DNA from: Savitreella phatthalungensis
Lineage: Eukaryota
NCBI GenBank assembly: GCA_051599415.1
Contig: AP039704.1
Location: 248,001 to 289,385, forward strand
Length of the DNA: 41,385 nt
Reading direction: 5' to 3'
Part shown: positions 29,460-41,385 of the stretch, piece by piece
How positions within the stretch are numbered: position 1 is the first letter of the stretch
Layout: each line of letters starts with the position of its first letter
Position numbers and translations under genes: made by a program
Notes under the pieces: generated by a model
What the model saw: the letters and a program-made list of their open reading frames with translations, nothing else
Databases searched by the model: none
Told to the model about the DNA's origin: nothing

Positions 29460-30287
29460 CTACGGCTCCGCGTTTGTCGCGTCTTGGCTGCATCCCACCT
29501 GCAGCACACTGCTGATCACAAATGATGTGTCCTTCGATACCACTGGCAATCGTAGGAGTACTTGTTCAAGCACGCCTTCGAATGTAGTCTGGCAGAAGTT
29601 GTTGATGCGCAAATCACGGGATTCGAATGTAAGCGTCAGCGACGGTGTTTGTAAGACGTCTGCCGAATCGTAGAGGGAGATGTGCAGGGTTTCAGGAAGC
29701 GTGTACGCTTGCTTATACGTTCGGCACTGCACGCCAGCACGCCCGTCGCAGGCCGTGTCGCACACCAGGGATGATTTCGGTCCGCACGCAGCGTCAGGCC
29801 GCAGGAAGGGGCTGTTGCCGATCGAATCCAAGCCCTCGCAGTCGGAATATACGTCCCAGTGGAGCTTCGCCTTTCGAGCTAGGAAGTTGAGCGTCTCCCA
29901 CAGTGCTTCGAACAGCGCTGTTCGGATATCCCAGCCGCTCAGTGGCGACAAGGATCCCCAGGTACCTTCTAGCTGTACGTTGACCTCGTAACGCGGAGGT
30001 GTCTCCCGGCTAATACAGTTGTCTGTCAAAGTGCGATACAGTGCATCGGATGACACACCTCGATCGTCACTCAAATTCCAGTAGCTCTGCCAAACGGACT
30101 CGAACAGGTCCAGATTACCGATGTTGACGCCGTAATCTGACCAGCGAGCCTCAAAGTGGTATTTGTCCACGGATCCGTCTCGATGGCCGCCTTCCACAGG
30201 TGACGGCGTTGTGCGTGGCAGATACGCCGCCATCGCGACAGAAATGACGCACAGACCGAACATTGCTTTCCACTTGACTCGACGCAT
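29460..30287 (-). CDS. Secreted cysteine-containing protein of unknown function (candidate effector)
   Basis: 275 aa intronless ORF with a basic-then-hydrophobic signal peptide (MRRVKWKAMFGLCVISVAMA) and about 8 Cys in the mature part. No family recognised. Confidence 0.65.
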   Translation of the reverse strand: MRRVKWKAMFGLCVISVAMAAYLPRTTPSPVEGGHRDGSVDKYHFEARWSDYGVNIGNLDLFESVWQSYWNLSDDRGVSSDALYRTLTDNCISRETPPRYEVNVQLEGTWGSLSPLSGWDIRTALFEALWETLNFLARKAKLHWDVYSDCEGLDSIGNSPFLRPDAACGPKSSLVCDTACDGRAGVQCRTYKQAYTLPETLHISLYDSADVLQTPSLTLTFESRDLRINNFCQTTFEGVLEQVLLRLPVVSKDTSFVISSVLQVGCSQDATNAEP

Positions 30288-32690
30288 TGGCCTTAAATCT
30301 TAGCCGCCGGGAAGACCCCTGTCCAATAAGCGTGCACGTCAAGCGCACGCAGAGGTCACGCGGCCGTGGCTCGGGTGAAGAAGCGACGCATTACAAAGGT
30401 CCTTCATCCATGGCCACGACGTCGATATTCGTGGCTGCGATGTCGAAGCTTGTCTTTGTGGAACATCCTCGTCCCGCGACTGTCGCAACGCCAGCCATAC
30501 CCGAAGCATCGTCGTCATGGTGGACGCGTCTATCTGTGACATGGAAAATGGTTATAGACACTTGGAGAAGGTAGACGGGGCTCAGCATAGTCAAAGGAAG
30601 CTATACAAGAAGCGCAGACACAAGCAGACATGACCATGCATCTTTCGCAGGGCCTCGGGCAGGAGCAAACGAAGCGGCCACAGGGCCTATCAATATGGCC
30701 GCTTTGAATCATTGTCCATTGTGCCACAGAGATAATGCCATGCTTGTCGTCGTGCTCGACCATGCGACAGATGAGTGATCTGGCAGATGAAATGATCGTG
30801 AACAGTCTCAGCAACATGAAGGTTGCATCATGATTGGATATAGCTACAAGCCATTGCGGAGAATAGTCACGCGATTGCTGAAGCAATTACTCAAGCAATA
30901 CGCACACAAATGGCATATGGGATCGGTATGAGAACAATGAGGACAGGAAGGATGATGGCGTGTTTCACAATTTACAGCCCAATTCAGGTATACTGCCTGA
31001 AATTGCGCCAATTGTCGAGGATAGGCTGACTCAGTCAAATGACCCTAGACAAAGTGCATTGTCGGTGAAATTGGTCAGCAGAATGATAATATTGCTGTTG
31101 CTCCATGGAGCATGATCTCATCTCCAATTATTTCGGCGCAAATGCCACCAAATTGCGTATCCACAGACATGATTTTGCTGAAGCAATTGAATATCATCAC
31201 GGCCGTGATTGATCCAGTGCGACGTCGATCGAGATCGTCGCACGAAAGATGGGGTCATCGGTAAGTTGAAGCAGTTGACCCAGAAGATCACAATGTACGG
31301 TGATATCGACAGGACGTAGACGTGTCGCAGATGCCAGTTGCTGTATCGGGAATCGACGTAGCACACAGCAGAGAGGACGCAAGGAGACGAAGCGTCGCCT
31401 ATTGTATGAGAACGGCCTGCCATGTACCAAAATTATCAAGCACCCGGAACAATATCGTGCCTCAGGCTCTTTCCACGAAGCTACGGGCTCCGAATCTGTA
31501 TGCACGATCAACGATTGATCAACAGGGGTGTATATATTGTAGGCGCTGGGCAATTGCAAGTAGATTGATCATGAGATGTTCAAAGACAAATTATCAAGAG
31601 ACCGTGGCGTCCATTGTACAATTGCTCGGGCCTTCTATGATTCAATGTAAGGTGCGTAATTGTGCAACGCATAATGCCTGAAAGTCTTTGTAATCTTCTC
31701 ATCAGACCTACGGCTATCGAAGTTTGTTGCGAAGGCAGAGTGACATATGCACAATCACAAATCTGAGTGGTCTTCTGTGCCCATATATCAAAATATGAGA
31801 CAATGCTGTTCATACAAGCTTCGACTTCTTGCCATGAGCCAGGCTGAAGCGACATGTCGAAAAACGAATCAAGGTCTGATCGTGCTTTTGCCAAGATATT
31901 CGAGATGTGCAAATTGCATTTGACAGTTGCAACAAGTATGCCTATTCTCGCTGAACATGCCCCGAACTCAAAATTCAGAACGATAACATGGTTTCCCTGC
32001 CACGAAAGTTCACCAGTACAACGAAAAGTTGACGCGCGCATTGATTCAGCTAAGCAGATTGTGCGCTCGAAAGCGAGTTTTAGCAGCTGCATCAGTCATA
32101 AGTCGCAATATATTGCACACATTGACAGACTTCAACAGCGACAATTTGATAAGCCTCGAAAACCATCACTGTTTTGTTATACAGAGCTCAATGTCACTGA
32201 GTTGTCACTCGACCACGTAGTCAACCAGGTCACGCTTTTCAGTCGCGCCTTGGAACTGAAATCTATTTCGATTGCATCAAGTACTTGATCAAGTTGCAAA
32301 CGCCGCTTCTGCAAGCCGTTGCAGCCGACATGGATGACGACCATCTGAACTCACCTTTTGCGCTGCAAACAGAAAGCAGGTGAAGACCAAAATCCGGAAA
32401 TACAGTACACAGGAAGTCCTGGACTTCCAATAACGACGCGCATGCAGGCTAGAGCGGGTTCTATGCTGCCTCAATTGAGGACCAAAGCAAGCGTTTCACA
32501 CAGAAGCGAGGTTCAGGAGACAGTCTTGCTCCAGGCTGCTTTGCAGTCTTGGGAGGGCTAAGCCAAGACTAAAACGTGGTGCAGCATGTCAGCAGACAAT
32601 CTGGGCCTAGCTGCTGTGTCTAGGTGTTTTCAACCTAGCTATATCTGGGCTCAAGGAGATGTCCGGGCTAACTAGATTTGTGCTTACCTG

Positions 32691-33093
32691 TGTCACGGCC
32701 GGTTGATGGCCCAGGTCGATCGTATATGGTTTGTACACAACGCCGTGTATATATGACACAATACTAGCCCCGTATGGAGCTATCAAATAGTATTGTTCTG
32801 TGCTAGGTCCCGGTGTTGGTGATACCTGGCATGCTGTCTCTGTATGGCGTGTCGCATCCTCTTGTACCCCCCTACCAACCTGCCACGTCAGCAGAGTTGT
32901 GGTATGTATCAGTTATAGCATGGTCAGTGTCACCGCCTAGACCGTCTCTTGTAGTCCCTCCATGTCTGTTTGTGCTTGTTTGTGTCTCTCTGTGTTCCTC
33001 GGTGGATTCCGTCTGTGTTGTCCTGTGTTGTCTGTCTTGTGTGCGTGTCGCTTTGTCCGTCGCCTTCGGGTCCTGCGGCCGTCCTCCGCGACA
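32691..33093. mobile_element. Solo-LTR-like relic (~403 bp)
   Basis: Imperfect inverted termini TGTCACGG...CCGCGACA (TG...CA, as in Ty3/gypsy LTRs). Homologous to the adjacent inverted copy. No 5-bp TSD is evident. Confidence 0.5.
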
Positions 33094-33116
33094 CTGTTGA
33101 ATAGTATCATTATGGA

Positions 33117-33342
33117 CGCCGCGGAGGACGATTGCAGGACCCAAGACTGACGGACAAAGTGACACGGACACGAGACAGACGACACAGGAGAACCCAGACG
33201 GAGTTCAACGAGGGACACAAACGGATACAGACAAGTACAAACAGACACCAGGGACTACAAGAGAGGCTGATCTAGTTGGTGTTGCTGACCCATGCTATAA
33301 ATGATACATACCACAACTCTGCTGATTTGGCAGGTCGTGACA
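33117..33342. mobile_element. Second, shorter LTR-like relic in inverted orientation
   Basis: Ends in CGTGACA. 33117-33335 is a ~80% identical reverse complement of 32878-33093, and it contains CTATAAAT. Confidence 0.45.
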
Positions 33343-34439
33343 CTACAGGCTCTTTCTGGCTGTCTCATGCACTCCAACTCCTTCTCACGTCCATGCGCCT
33401 GACTCTTTCTTCGCTGAGTCGGGTATGAAGATGATAAGGAGAACACCCGTGCGTCACCTGGCGTGCCGCGTTTCGCTGACAATTCGATACACTGATGTCA
33501 AGTCCCTTGGACTACGAAAGATACACTTGCACACGACAAGTTGCAAGTCTGGATTTCAGCAATTTCCAACAATCTCCTGTGTCGGCGCTTGTCCAATTTC
33601 ACTTGCAGGTCTATGTGAAGCTTGTCCTGACCATTTGACCTTCATTTCAACCTTCCTTTGCAGCCTTGATCGGCGTCACCTTGTCTGTCCGTGCTTCTGT
33701 CGCTATTGCAGACGATATTAGCACTGACCAGTCTAATTATAGGCTACAAACTCGTGGTTGGTCCAGTTCCATGGAGATCTGTTAGGGACAGCGATACAGA
33801 TGATCATTGGCTGGCTGTGCGTCGTGCATGGCTTCAGTCTCTTGCGAAACGACGCCGAGGGACTTCTAATCTGAGCGTGGTTTCGTCATGCGCTCTATGC
33901 ATCGGGAAGTTACACTTCGCTGAGATCATTTTGCTGGTTTAGTGTTGCGTTATTTGGGCAGCTTGTGTGAATCAAGAATGTGAAGGCACCGGGGACTCCC
34001 AAATTTTATGTGCTATCCTGCAGGGAATTCATCACATAGGCACTGGATACGCCTCCAGAATGAGGAAGCTGGCCGTCCCCGATCTTTCAAGATTGATCTG
34101 CAACGTTTGATCACCAGCCGGAATATCCTTTCCCTTGCAGATAGCACAGGCGCAATGCAGGGGCAAGCCGAAATTTGCACATGCATGATAATGTGCACAC
34201 ACTACATGGAATGCGCCCTTGATGACTACGCGTATCCTCGCACACCGATCACGAATTACCAGGGCTATCTCAAAGGCATTCAAAACGGCGCGCCTCTTTC
34301 AAGGACCTCTTCAACCAGTTGCGCTTACAGTCGACCGGACTCCAAGATTGCATCCAGGGTCAGATTCCTGCTGTGGAATTCACTGATATCGAGCAGCAAG
34401 CATACCCTGCTGCGAGCGATCTGGTGACGTTGCGCTCTG

Positions 34440-36086
34440 ATGCCGCTGAGCATGTCAGTCCGCAATGACTCTTGCTTTGCGGCAACCGGCTTTGCTGGCT
34501 ACCAAGGCGAAGACCCAACATCCGCGCAATTGCTGCAACCTGCGCAAGTGACAGAAACTGAAGTTGAAGGCGCGAGGTTGCGGCCCACAGACGACCAGAC
34601 ACGCAAGTGCATGTCGCAATCGCCCCCGCAGTTGTTGTCTGGCGAGCTGGCAGATGACGAGTCTGAGGTGTCCATCGAGTCGCTCACTGACAGCGATTCT
34701 GACAGGTATTCATGCGGGTGTCACCGACACCCCGAGACACGCGTCCGTCCGGCAATTCTCTTCGAGCCAGGCGAGCTGAGTGGTCAGGGTTTGCTTGAGC
34801 TCGACTGTACTCGTGCCTGGTTTGCGAAGCATGAGCCTGAGACAGGCACCGAGCGCACTGCGCCAAATCGCGCAACTCCTCAAACTATTGCTGCTCTCAA
34901 TGTACGCTTCGGAAGCTTCGTCGTAGGTGGAGCGTGCTCTCTGACGTCGACAGAGATGTCATCTCGGCCTGACGTGACTGTCAATTGCCTCGACATCCTG
35001 AGGACCTGTGCTTTACATTTCGCTGTGCGGCGGTTTCGTCGACTGGCGGGCGTCTTGGAAGAAAGGGACATTGCTGCAGGGATGAAAGATGTTTTCGATG
35101 ATGTCATTGAGCAGCTTGTTCAAGCTGGAGATTCCGGCCTGCTGGCAGGTGGATCGCTACCGATCCCCCAAATAGAAGCTTGGGTCCAGTCGCCCAATTC
35201 GGATCAGCGGCGTGGTGACGAAATGCGGCAGCGCGCCTTGGGACGAGTTGACCTTTGTCTACTGCTTTCGCCTCACTCGGACTCCAGGCCCCCATCATCA
35301 GAATTTGTCATGATTATGGAGCTGAAACGCTCAGTACGCTCCGCCCACGAAGTGCTGCCGCAGCTGACTTGCTATCTGGCTGCTCTGAACGATAGCCCGT
35401 CAAGCGCCATGCACAGGCCGGCTGCAACACTGGACGGGTTCCCGATCACGGGTGTCTTGCCGGCAGTCCTTCAGACCGGCTTAGATGCTACCTTGTGCGT
35501 CGCATGGCGCGATCAGAGGCTTCCCGCAGCAGCTGCGTCTTATGGCGAACTCCCATTGCACGTCCTCGTGGGCAAGACCTACAATCTGACAGATCGCGAT
35601 GAAGCTGTCGAGTTCATGGCCAGCCTCATCAATCTACTCAGCGGGACTGCCCAATTGAGGACACGACAAATGCTTCCGTCTCACGCGGATCAAGGCTACT
35701 CCATGAGTCTCGATGGCTACGGTGGCGAATTAGTCGGTCAGGCGCTAAATCCATGCTCGCTGCCGCCGTCGTTCACGCGCAGATTTTTCGCAGACAGTCT
35801 CACCTCGGACTCCGAATCTCCCGACTCATGCTACGACGATGACGACGACGATAGCGACAATATGGTCGCGGACCCGAATGTGCGATCATCTGATCTCGAC
35901 TCATCGAGCGATGACAACAAAGGGAAACCAATGAAAAGGCGACCCGCGCCTGCTCGCAATGCCTCGATGACTAAACGACAAAAGCGCAGGCTGCGGAAAG
36001 CGGAGTCGGCCCTTGACCTGATGAAGAGAGCATTCACGAACAGCCGACGAATGGCCACGTTAAGCGCCGGGAAACCGGGAAAGTAA
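34440..36086 (+). CDS. Orphan subtelomeric protein with a PD-(D/E)XK restriction-endonuclease-like motif, acidic tract and C-terminal basic NLS
   Basis: 548 aa uninterrupted ORF in otherwise decayed sequence. Motif GRVDLCLLL...VMIMELKRS...LPQLTCYL (D...ExK...Q..Y), then DDDDDDSD and KRRP..../KRQKRRLRK. Confidence 0.6.
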   Translation: MPLSMSVRNDSCFAATGFAGYQGEDPTSAQLLQPAQVTETEVEGARLRPTDDQTRKCMSQSPPQLLSGELADDESEVSIESLTDSDSDRYSCGCHRHPETRVRPAILFEPGELSGQGLLELDCTRAWFAKHEPETGTERTAPNRATPQTIAALNVRFGSFVVGGACSLTSTEMSSRPDVTVNCLDILRTCALHFAVRRFRRLAGVLEERDIAAGMKDVFDDVIEQLVQAGDSGLLAGGSLPIPQIEAWVQSPNSDQRRGDEMRQRALGRVDLCLLLSPHSDSRPPSSEFVMIMELKRSVRSAHEVLPQLTCYLAALNDSPSSAMHRPAATLDGFPITGVLPAVLQTGLDATLCVAWRDQRLPAAAASYGELPLHVLVGKTYNLTDRDEAVEFMASLINLLSGTAQLRTRQMLPSHADQGYSMSLDGYGGELVGQALNPCSLPPSFTRRFFADSLTSDSESPDSCYDDDDDDSDNMVADPNVRSSDLDSSSDDNKGKPMKRRPAPARNASMTKRQKRRLRKAESALDLMKRAFTNSRRMATLSAGKPGK

Positions 36087-36868
36087 TGCAAGTAGAGCAC
36101 ATCATTGTGCACTTACGAACGAGAAATGAATTAATGGAAATGTGCAAAAGAGGCGCACTCGACGTGCTGTAGAATGGGTGATGCAAAGCACAACTGGTCG
36201 GAGACAGTGTCGCCAAAGCAATACGGATCCAGACATGACCGAGAATTGCACAATCTCAGGTGCGCGCCAAGGGCTCGTCGCTCGACATCTTGATGCACCT
36301 TCCAACGTGCTCTTCAAACCCGTGTATCGACAGCCAAACGTGCGCGTCCGGGTCATTGCACTATCTCTGGCTTGAACTAGATCGTCCTAGTGTCGGGTTG
36401 TAAAAGCAATAGGACGACCAGATTGAACCAGGCCGTACTACAGTGTCATTCCTAGCACTAGTTTGTACTAGGTAACTGTAGTACCAATTTGTCCCAAATT
36501 ATCCTAGGTCATACACCTGCACGGCGCCGTTCAGCTCTAATTAAAGTCGCTACACCTAGAATTGATCACCTTTAAGATTAATCAATTTCACACACTCTTT
36601 TTTTGTCGCCTCCTCGAAGGCACCTTCTCCGTAGATTGCTCGCTATTCGATGGAATCACCAGCGCTAGCTCTGAAAGTAAGGTAGCTTGGTCCTGTGCCT
36701 CTATCCATGCTCTAGGCTCGATTTTAGCAGCCCTCGCCTTCGCTGCGATCCAGTGCCACCTCATATCTGTGTAGTCTAGATATATTCCACGCGTTTGACC
36801 CCGTTGGTTTGACCTGCGTTAGATAGGGGCAATTTTTTTGCTTGACGAACGGCGCAATGCACAAAAAT

Positions 36869-38040
36869 TTGGCGCCGTTGGTCGTGCATCTGACGCCATT
36901 TTGGCGCCGTTTGTCAGCGGGGCCGGCAAGACAAAATTTGCTCCTATCTGGAGGCCCTCAGTCAAATAATTTGATCACCAAAAAAGTATCAATTTTGGCG
37001 CCGTCGGTCAAAAATAGGTCACGTTTGGCGCCGTCGGTTCTATTTGATCAGCAAAAAATATCGAAATCGGCGCCGTCGGGAGAAAATAGATTACTTGGCG
37101 CCGTTGGTTCTGTGCATCCACACAGAATTGGCGCCGTCGGTCGACCACATAGCAGTGAAATGGCGCCGTCGGTCAAGCACCTGACCAAAATTGGCGCCGT
37201 TTGTTCTGTGCATCCACACAGAATTGGCGCCGTCGGTCGACCACATAGCAGTGAAATGGCGCCGTTGGTCAAGCACCTGACCAAAATTGGCGCCGTTTGT
37301 TCTGTGCATCCACACAGAATTGGCGCCGTCGGTCGACCACATAGCAGTGAAATGGCGCCGTCGGTCAAGCACCTGACCAAAATTGGCGCCGTTGGTTCTG
37401 TGCATCCACACAGAATTGGCGCCGTCGGTCAAGCATCCTAGCACAAAATTGGCGCCGTCGGTCAATCACATAGCACAAATTTGGCGCCGTCGGTCAATCA
37501 CATAGTAATGATTTGGCGCCGTTGGTCAACCACATAGCAGCAAATTTGGCGCCGTCGGTCAATCACATAGCACTGAATTGGCGCCGTTGGTCAACCACAT
37601 AGCACTGAATTGGCGCCGTTTGTTTTGTGCATCCACACAGAATTGGCGCCGTTGGTCGAGCATCCTAGCACAAATTTGGCGCCGTCGGTCAATCACATAG
37701 CACAAATTTGGCGCCGTCGGTCAATCACATAGTAATGATTTGGCGCCGTCGGTCAAGCACCTGACCAAAATTGGCGCCGTCGGTTTTGTGCATCCACACA
37801 GAATTGGCGCCGTTGGTCAAGCATTCCAGTGGAAAATTGGCGCCGTCGGTCAATCACATAGCACTGAATTGGCGCCATTTGTCAATCACATAGTAATGAT
37901 TTGGCGCCGTTGGTTCTGTGCATCCACACAGAATTGGCGCCGTTGGTCAAGCATTCCAGGGCAAAATTGGCGCCGTTGGTCAATCACATAGCACTGAATT
38001 GGCGCTGTCGGTCAACCACATAGCACTGAATTGGCGCTGT
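36869..38040 (+). repeat. Subtelomeric minisatellite with core (A/T)TTGGCGCCGT(C/T)GGT every 31-33 bp and a 96-bp higher-order unit
   Basis: I count 33 GGCGCC cores plus 2 degenerate GGCGCT copies at the distal end. Cores at 37097, 37130, 37162, 37193 and 37226 give spacings of 33/32/31/33. The three-monomer block is repeated about 3 times at 37095-37415. Confidence 0.95.
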
Positions 38041-38428
38041 TGTTCTTTGTACCTACTAGATCACACTAGTAATAGATTGTACTAGTAGTAGGTGCTACTA
38101 GATTGTAGTAGTACTAGGAGGTAGTACTAGGTTGTAGTAGTGCCAGGTCGGCCTCGGTCGCAGTCAGTGCTAGGTAGCGCCAGGTGGCAGTACTCGTGGC
38201 AGTACTCTGCAGTACGAGGTCGTAGTAGCCGCAGGTGGTACTAGTAGTAGGTTGTCGTGGTGCCAGGTGGTAGTACTAGGTGGTGGTGCCAGGTCGTCGC
38301 CGAGTCGACCATTTTTCGCACCTACTAGGTGGTAGTAGGTTGTACTAGTACTAGGTCGTAGTAGTACTAGGTGGTGGTGCTAGGTCGTAGTAGTACTAGG
38401 TTGTAGTGCCAGGTCGCACTAGGTCAAA

Positions 38429-41150: not shown

Positions 41151-41252
41151 GGGTTAGGGTTAGGGTTAGGGTTAGGGTTAGGGTTAGGGTTAGGGTTAGG
41201 GTTAGGGTTAGGGTTAGGGTTAGGGTTAGGGTTAGGGTTAGGGTTAGGGTTA
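41151..41252 (+). repeat. Telomere repeat (GGGTTA)17, i.e. TTAGGG type, G-strand running toward the window end
   Basis: 102 bp perfect hexamer array in the orientation expected for a right chromosome end. Confidence 0.98.
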
Positions 41253-41315
41253 CACAAATCTACGGACCTGTTAGTATGTCAATCATCCATATAGTATAGC
41301 AGTCCTGTAGGGTTA

Positions 41316-41374
41316 GCTGTTCTCGCAAAGGCAGAAAGTAGTCTTAACCTTAGCAATACGTAACTGAACGAAGT
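41316..41374 (+). other. Untrimmed Oxford Nanopore native barcode (BC06/NB06 as I recall it) plus ligation adapter
   Basis: GCTG-TTCTCGCAAAGGCAGAAAGTAGTC-TTAACCT is the barcode with its native flanks. It is followed by AGCAATACGTAACTGAACGAAGT, the reverse complement of the ONT adapter ACTTCGTTCAGTTACGTATTGCT. Confidence 0.93.
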
Positions 41375-41385
41375 AGAGGCCACAC

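What the first reader, a model, noticed from the sequence alone, without database searches (positions are those of the whole stretch)
34440..36086. Intact subtelomeric orphan with a restriction-endonuclease-like (PD-(D/E)XK) signature and NLS
Seen: this is the only long open frame in the ~11 kb of decayed and repetitive subtelomere, and the last gene before the telomere. It has GRVD followed by a hydrophobic strand, then hydrophobic-ELK, then PQLTCYL, followed by an acidic stretch and a bipartite-like basic tail. Known: D...ExK plus a downstream Q..Y helix is the catalytic signature of PD-(D/E)XK nucleases. In eukaryotes this fold occurs in Crinkler/CR-type REase effectors and selfish elements, which are often subtelomeric. 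Inference: a nuclear-targeted nuclease acting as a selfish element, killer/drive factor or subtelomere-recombination factor, without a recognisable Crinkler header or transposase partner.
Basis: partly seen in the sequence, partly recalled or inferred. Interest (0 to 1): 0.72.

Follow-up and report, generated by a model that had tools for sequence, protein, structure and literature searches.

The report
Chromosome-end restriction-enzyme-like yeast gene family
A leaf-surface yeast keeps three very diverged but intact copies of a gene for a protein shaped like a bacterial restriction enzyme, each near a chromosome tip, which points to a DNA-cutting protein of a general kind known in fungi whose job here is untested.

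Summary
The 548-codon ORF and its motifs are real. It is not a singleton. The telomere-to-telomere genome holds two more intact paralogs at 32-37% identity, each 5-8 kb from a telomere, plus three fragments. A moderate-confidence model of one paralog's core has the restriction-endonuclease topology and matches BpuSI (Z 10.3), DrdV and SgrAI; 18 of the top 23 rows are titled nucleases or restriction-like proteins. No sequence relative was found outside this genome. There is no Crinkler header motif, kinase, NTPase, reverse transcriptase or shared neighbour gene. Best reading: a stand-alone nuclear PD-(D/E)XK/QxxxY DNase family, turning over at chromosome ends, probably a genetic-conflict nuclease; activity, expression and role are unshown. 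One correction: the proximal 'decayed subtelomere' holds a likely centromere element found once on each of the 27 chromosomes, 1.1 kb from the gene.

The parts
34440..36086 (+). ORF, 548 aa, stand-alone PD-(D/E)XK-fold protein
   Evidence: paralogs
34713..35039 (+). Conserved N-terminal block (residues 92-200, begins CGC), no known family, fold not resolved
   Evidence: conserved in three paralogs; pLDDT about 22-35; no Pfam hit
35040..35660 (+). Nuclease-fold core (residues 201-407)
   Evidence: paralog-led model and fold searches
35250..35252 (+). D271, motif II aspartate on the second core strand
   Evidence: invariant; strand in model
35319..35327 (+). E294-x-K296, motif III on the third core strand
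   Evidence: invariant; strand in model; kept as E-V-K in run X3
35361..35375 (+). Q308-xxx-Y312 helix (RecB/HsdR-type QxxxY motif)
   Evidence: invariant; helix in both models
35784..35912 (+). Acidic Ser/Asp-rich tract with a short conserved DP-x-x-x-x-SDLD block
35934..35996 (+). Bipartite-like basic motif, candidate NLS
   Evidence: a basic cluster follows the acidic tract in all three paralogs, but the bipartite pattern matches only 2 of 3
32690..33335 (.). Imperfect inverted-repeat element, one cluster per chromosome; likely centromere marker 1.1 kb proximal to the gene (context)
36776..38050 (.). Subtelomeric tandem array (32-bp unit, 33 GGCGCC sites), also at several other ends (context)
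41151..41252 (+). TTAGGG telomere array, 5.1 kb from the stop codon (context)

Best explanation
The gene encodes a stand-alone nuclease of the PD-(D/E)XK (restriction-endonuclease-like) superfamily with a RecB/HsdR-type QxxxY helix. It is one of a small, old family that duplicates and decays mainly at chromosome ends. Proposed working: the basic tail takes the protein to the nucleus (inferred); D271 and E294 bind divalent metal and K296 with the QxxxY helix completes phosphodiester hydrolysis (inferred from fold and conservation); the uncharacterised N-terminal block or the acidic tract sets specificity or restrains activity (speculative). The most likely role is genetic conflict: a DNA-damaging toxin or drive-type factor, or a defence against invading DNA, tolerated because subtelomeric genes can be silenced or expressed only at some stages (inferred). 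Shown: intact frames, paralogy, location, motif conservation, predicted fold. My odds: fold about 0.9, catalytically active about 0.75, conflict role about 0.5.
For: Three intact paralogs at 32-37% identity keep D, E-x-K and Q-xxx-Y. 64 of 301 gapless core columns are invariant, so five pre-named positions all invariant has a naive chance of 4e-4 (columns are not independent). The core model (pLDDT 60, pTM 0.64) puts D on strand 2, ExK on strand 3 and QxxxY on the next helix. Best structural matches: BpuSI Z 10.3, rmsd 3.4, 145 aligned; DrdV Z 9.0, 3.6, 120; SgrAI Z 8.3, 4.4, 165; also HsdR, NucC and McrBC. Language-model neighbours include PDDEXK_12 and HSDR_N clusters, as leads under 0.9. 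All three intact copies lie within 10 kb of a telomere, a zone that is 4.2% of the genome (0.002 for the two new copies). Fragments on C19 and C1 show turnover. Precedent: Spok3 kills through a PD-(D/E)XK domain with a QxxxY motif whose best match was the same Vibrio HsdR, and K240A abolishes killing (PMC6660238, passages).
Against: No activity or expression data. The window protein's own model had mean pLDDT 39 and no strands at D271 or E294, and its fold search gave only helical hairpins. Foldseek gave no match at E<=0.001. Non-catalytic uses of the fold score almost as well (mitoribosomal chains, Z 8.8-9.5). No antidote domain or shared partner gene was found, which a killer needs. The species named by the paralogs' labels has no observed ascospores (PMC8877625, passages), which weakens meiotic drive. 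Subtelomeres collect many kinds of fast-evolving genes, so location does not fix a role.
Confidence: 0.5

Rival explanations
1. A domesticated nuclease that serves the host at chromosome ends or centromeres, for example by starting subtelomeric recombination or processing stalled structures.
For: Long retention of catalytic residues; all intact copies near telomeres; subtelomeric repeats are shuffled between ends; RecQ-like telomere-linked helicase ORFs occur at some ends.
Against: A trans-acting maintenance enzyme need not be encoded at ends. No relatives were found in other fungi, whereas housekeeping nucleases are usually conserved. Only 3 of 54 ends carry a copy. The copies lie beside different repeat classes.
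Confidence: 0.15
2. The endonuclease of a mobile element whose other parts are lost or act in trans.
For: A remnant lies between core genes 207 kb inside C1, so copies have reached internal sites. Copies point both towards and away from telomeres.
Against: No shared termini: among 1.5-kb flanks only one 112-bp match, between the C15 and C22 upstream regions. No reverse transcriptase or transposase hit among the neighbours scanned, no CCHC knuckle, and no recent near-identical full copies.
Confidence: 0.12
3. The fold is right but the protein acts on RNA or another phosphoester, or is a non-catalytic nucleic-acid binder.
For: Mitoribosomal chains rank 2, 4 and 16 in the fold search and Can2 ranks 15. 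PD-(D/E)XK members that act on RNA caps are known (recalled).
Against: The full D, ExK, QxxxY set is kept across three diverged copies, unlike a dead fold; most matches are DNases.
Confidence: 0.13
4. A Crinkler-type effector exported to plant cells or to competing microbes on the leaf.
For: REase domains with an NLS are common Crinkler C-termini (PMC5289972 and PMC6131194, passages). The N-terminal block could be an unrecognised header, since headers are diverse.
Against: No LxLFLAK-like or HVLxxP motif and no hydrophobic N-terminus in any paralog; no Pfam hit. The species caused no symptoms on its host leaves (PMC8877625).
Confidence: 0.07
5. A silent relic whose frame is open by chance.
For: No RNA evidence was obtained. 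Of four differences seen in independent runs, three change an amino acid.
Against: Three frames of 548-674 codons stayed open while diverging to about 35% identity; shuffles give at most 305 aa; the 617 bases covered by independent runs show no stop or frameshift.
Confidence: 0.03

Closest known systems
Spok meiotic drivers (Podospora Spok3), nuclease domain
   Same: Fungal PD-(D/E)XK domain with QxxxY and HsdR-like matches (PMC6660238; the same HsdR entry is rank 12); duplicates and diversifies within lineages.
   Different: No kinase motifs, Spok cysteine cluster or Pfam kinase hit here; QxxxY lies 12 residues after the lysine, against 54 in Spok3; no sequence match; drive untested.
Crinkler/CR REase toxin domains (Zhang et al. 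2016, seen only through PMC5289972 and PMC6131194)
   Same: Eukaryotic REase domain plus NLS-like tail; proposed conflict role.
   Different: No header motif, signal peptide, NTPase or kinase; three copies only; the CR-REase family alignments could not be compared.
Fungal PDDEXK_12 (PF20516) and DUF6826 (PF20713) proteins, and unnamed basidiomycete clusters
   Same: Nearest clusters by language-model features, scores 0.84-0.90.
   Different: No HMM match to these families; the scores are at lead level and share only 107-137 of 256 features.
Endonuclease domains of Type IIG (BpuSI, DrdV) and Type I (HsdR) restriction enzymes
   Same: Best structural matches, covering most of the core.
   Different: 7-13% identity; no methyltransferase or helicase motor; eukaryotic gene with a basic tail.
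Telomere-targeted non-LTR retrotransposons (MoTeR, FoTeR) with a restriction-like endonuclease
   Same: REase-fold nuclease at fungal chromosome ends (search listing and start of abstracts).
   Different: No reverse transcriptase, no CCHC knuckle, not inserted in telomere repeats.

Membership tests
PD-(D/E)XK nuclease superfamily | alpha-beta-beta-beta-alpha-beta core | tested here: met
   Seen in the model led by the C15 paralog, pLDDT 60; Z 10.3, rmsd 3.4, 145 aligned to BpuSI. Not resolved in the window protein's own model.
PD-(D/E)XK nuclease superfamily | Asp on strand 2 and (D/E)xK on strand 3, conserved | tested here: met
   Invariant in 3 of 3 intact paralogs; positions fall on strands 72-80 and 89-96 of the model.
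PD-(D/E)XK nuclease superfamily | Motif I acidic residue on the first helix | tested here: inconclusive
   E208 is invariant in alignment A2 but not in A1.
PD-(D/E)XK nuclease superfamily | Catalytic side chains cluster in space | not testable with these tools
   Model coordinates and residue-level superpositions were not returned.
PD-(D/E)XK nuclease superfamily | Metal-dependent nucleic-acid cleavage | not testable with these tools
   Needs biochemistry.
RecB/HsdR-type subset | QxxxY motif on the helix after ExK | tested here: met
   Invariant; helix in both models; motif described in PMC6660238.
Crinkler/CR effectors | Ubl header with LxLFLAK-like and HVLxxP motifs, or signal peptide | tested here: not met
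   Patterns absent in 3 of 3; no hydrophobic N-terminus. HVLV at 374 lies in a core strand and is not conserved.
Crinkler/CR effectors | Some other CR header fold | tested here: inconclusive
   The N-terminal block has no Pfam hit and no usable model.
Crinkler/CR effectors | REase paired with NTPase or kinase | tested here: not met
   No Walker A or kinase motif; no Pfam hit; no longer fused relative found, which is weak evidence.
Crinkler/CR effectors | Belongs to a named CR-REase family | not testable with these tools
   The defining paper and its alignments were not available.
Spok spore killers | PD-(D/E)XK domain with QxxxY | tested here: met
Spok spore killers | C-terminal kinase (resistance) domain and cysteine cluster | tested here: not met
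   the C-terminus is an acidic and basic low-complexity tail
Spok spore killers | Spore killing in crosses | not testable with these tools
   No sexual stage observed in the species description.
RLE non-LTR retrotransposons (MoTeR/FoTeR/CRE) | Reverse transcriptase and CCHC knuckle with the endonuclease | tested here: not met
PDDEXK_12 (PF20516) / DUF6826 (PF20713) | HMM score above the family cut-off | tested here: not met
   No hit for full proteins or cores.

The most novel reading that the evidence does not exclude
A kinase-free, header-free family of restriction-like toxins in an early-diverging ascomycete that acts as a one-gene killer or addiction factor at chromosome ends. It would either keep its small chromosomes from being lost or make the breaks behind this karyotype, in which 12 of 27 chromosomes have the centromere-like element within 11 kb of an end and the window's copy sits alone between that element and the telomere. 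All three intact copies are on chromosomes of 401 kb or less. Against: the C15 and C22 copies are at the ends far from their centromere-like clusters.
Probability: 0.12. Interest if true: 0.85.

Novelty: new variant of a known kind. Interest (0 to 1): 0.46.

Why it matters
Restriction-like nucleases in fungi are known as spore killers (Spok) and Crinkler toxin domains, there with a resistance, regulatory or delivery domain attached. Here the catalytic core is kept in three old copies with none of those domains recognisable, in a compact genome and always at chromosome tips. That gives a small, cloneable test of what a stand-alone fungal REase does and how its host survives it. The likely centromere element found beside it is a separate resource for an order of fungi where my one literature search found no centromere description.

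Tried and rejected
Family scans gave nothing useful: Pfam on full proteins and cores, PHROGs, PADLOC, NCBIfam, solved-structure sequences (30; best E 0.0084, unrelated). Homolog searches returned only this genome's copies: word-based searches of 5.8 billion proteins (10, 37, 84; 8000 candidates scored each) and a profile search of 1.84 billion representatives (28; 3 hits). Metagenome contigs, viral contigs and phages gave none. PF20516 and PF20713 were not found in the genome, but the control did not ring either. No RNA holder was listed; run X4 is only guessed to be RNA and covers 226 bases, so it shows nothing on expression. Run X8 laid nothing, which is no proof of absence. A conserved antidote neighbour was sought among frames of 60 aa or more around the copies: only repeats and the family itself matched. 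The GGCGCC array as a target was set aside because the other two copies lie beside a different repeat. A sensitive profile scan of all 54 terminal 10-kb stretches found no further copy; internal regions were searched only with single proteins. Literature: no paper on this family in searches; Zhang et al. 2016 could not be read, nor its supplements, which hold the CR-REase alignments. No complex prediction was run. Earlier scan notes held nothing on this locus.

Full report
Observation. The window is the right end of contig C16 of a 12.7-Mb, 27-contig fungal genome. All 54 contig ends carry TTAGGG arrays. Two paralogs of the gene are labelled Savitreella phatthalungensis by their source, a Taphrinales yeast from leaves, with no ascospores observed and no symptoms on tested leaves (PMC8877625, passages). 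The ORF at 34440-36086 is 548 aa and carries GRVD (268), ELK (294), PQLTCYL (307), an acidic tract and a basic tail. It is the only ORF over 200 aa in the last 11 kb. Shuffles give at most 305 aa (300 runs).

It belongs to a small family. Searches of the genome found intact paralogs at C22:235175-237100 (641 aa) and C15:8235-10259 (674 aa), and fragments at C19:12948-13202, C19:13686-13787 and C1:207296-207421. The intact copies lie 5.1, 5.7 and 8.1 kb from telomere arrays. Terminal 10-kb zones are 4.2% of the genome. A profile scan of all 54 ends found 3 with a copy. The C19 pieces are 13 kb from an end; the C1 piece is internal, between core genes. The C16 copy points towards its telomere, the other two away. 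Full copies share no DNA-level match at E<=1e-8, while the larger C19 fragment is 86% identical to the C22 copy over 250 bases. So the full copies are old and turnover has continued.

The motif prediction passed a blind test. The paralogs are 37% and 32% identical to the window protein, yet D271, E294, K296, Q308 and Y312 are invariant. The baseline is 64 invariant of 301 gapless core columns, giving 4e-4 if columns were independent, which they are not. An independent run (X3) holds 362 bases over the active site with three differences: S280P, L295V and one silent, so the motif reads E-V-K. Two other runs share K499N in the basic tail. None of the 617 bases covered shows a stop or frameshift.

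Fold. A model of the window protein (residues 91-447, three sequences) was poor: mean pLDDT 39, no strands at the catalytic positions, and only helical-hairpin matches. A core-only model led by the C15 paralog reached pLDDT 60 and pTM 0.64. It shows helix, three strands, the QxxxY helix, further strands and a closing helix, with D on strand 2 and ExK on strand 3. Against 48,161 solved chains the best matches were BpuSI (Z 10.3, rmsd 3.4, 145 aligned), a mitoribosomal chain (9.5), DrdV (9.0), a second mitoribosomal chain (8.8) and SgrAI (8.3). By title, 18 of the top 23 rows are restriction enzymes, nucleases or restriction-like proteins, 3 are mitoribosomal chains and 2 are unnamed. That those mitoribosomal proteins have a non-catalytic version of this fold is recalled, not from a call. 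Foldseek gave no match at E<=0.001 but ranked the same proteins high. Language-model neighbours were mostly unnamed basidiomycete proteins plus PDDEXK_12, DUF6826 and HSDR_N clusters, at lead-level scores of 0.83-0.90. I could not inspect side-chain geometry.

What is missing. No relative outside this genome was found. The proteins lack Crinkler header motifs, a hydrophobic N-terminus, Walker A, kinase motifs, the Spok cysteine cluster and a CCHC knuckle. No neighbour gene is shared between loci, and flanks share only 112 bases upstream of the C15 and C22 copies. The conserved block at residues 92-200 has no family and no usable model.

Context correction. The proximal half of the 'subtelomere' contains an imperfect inverted repeat at 32690-33335. 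In the 150 of 161 matches listed, it hits exactly one cluster on each of the 27 contigs. In four internal clusters that I fetched, GC dips to 0.45-0.46 against about 0.50-0.56 nearby, and three of four have no ORF of 200 aa or more inside the span. This is what a centromere marker would look like (inference). Twelve clusters are within 11 kb of an end. The gene would then be the only long ORF on the short arm of C16. The C15 and C22 copies are at the ends far from their clusters, so telomere proximity, not centromere linkage, is the shared trait.

Mechanism. The best-supported reading is a nuclear, metal-dependent DNase. The nearest tested precedent is Spok3, whose PD-(D/E)XK and QxxxY domain matched the Vibrio HsdR that is also rank 12 here, and whose catalytic lysine is needed for killing while a separate kinase gives resistance (PMC6660238, passages). 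SPOK1 is reported to kill by targeting DNA in E. coli and yeast (PMC9972908, abstract). Crinkler REases are usually paired with a header and an NTPase or kinase (PMC5289972 and PMC6131194, passages). Lineage restriction, rapid divergence with a kept active site, and turnover at chromosome ends fit a conflict gene better than a housekeeping one. The lack of a visible antidote and of a known sexual stage keeps this at 0.5. Rivals are a domesticated end-maintenance nuclease (0.15), a non-DNase use of the fold (0.13), a stranded mobile-element endonuclease (0.12), an exported effector (0.07) and a silent relic (0.03).

Verdict. It works, most likely, like the nuclease half of Spok or a CR toxin domain, but it is not a member of either family by the features tested. 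New variant of a known kind; interest 0.46.

Noticed in passing
window 32690-33335 and one cluster on each of C1-C27: Imperfect inverted-repeat element present as one cluster per chromosome, in GC-poor and mostly gene-free gaps: a likely centromere marker. 12 of 27 clusters lie within 11 kb of a chromosome end, and several of those are a single short copy, as centric fission might leave. One paper search found no description of it.
   Followed up: partly
window 36542-36777: Young 236-bp dispersed repeat, 96-99% identical at 14 other sites and 82-87% at three more, lying at the start of the subtelomeric repeat.
   Followed up: no
window 41253-41385: Non-telomeric tail beyond the TTAGGG array, with near-identical sequence at the C15, C19 and C22 ends; it looks like an untrimmed nanopore adapter and barcode (recalled), so an assembly artefact.
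   Followed up: partly
window 34008-34427: A 139-codon ORF in the same frame as the gene, separated from it by one TGA and four codons; no match to the paralogs' N-termini.
   Followed up: partly
L010:4800-7691 (C22:239800-242691); related ORFs at the C1 left, C8 right and C10 right ends: 963-aa ORF with weak OrsD, C2H2, integrase-like and DEAD-box hits running up to the telomere; a telomere-linked RecQ-like helicase family.
   Followed up: partly
window 29460-30287 (-): 275-aa ORF with a hydrophobic N-terminus and several cysteines, no Pfam hit; a candidate secreted protein and the last gene before the centromere-like gap.
   Followed up: no
L007 and L008 (C19:5662-12742): Four ORFs of 229-426 aa without a significant Pfam hit around the family's fragments at the C19 left end.
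   Followed up: no
window 36776-38050: 32-bp tandem array with 33 GGCGCC palindromes, against 7 in the first 30.3 kb; related arrays at the C1, C8, C10, C18 and C26 ends and one internal site on C2.
   Followed up: partly
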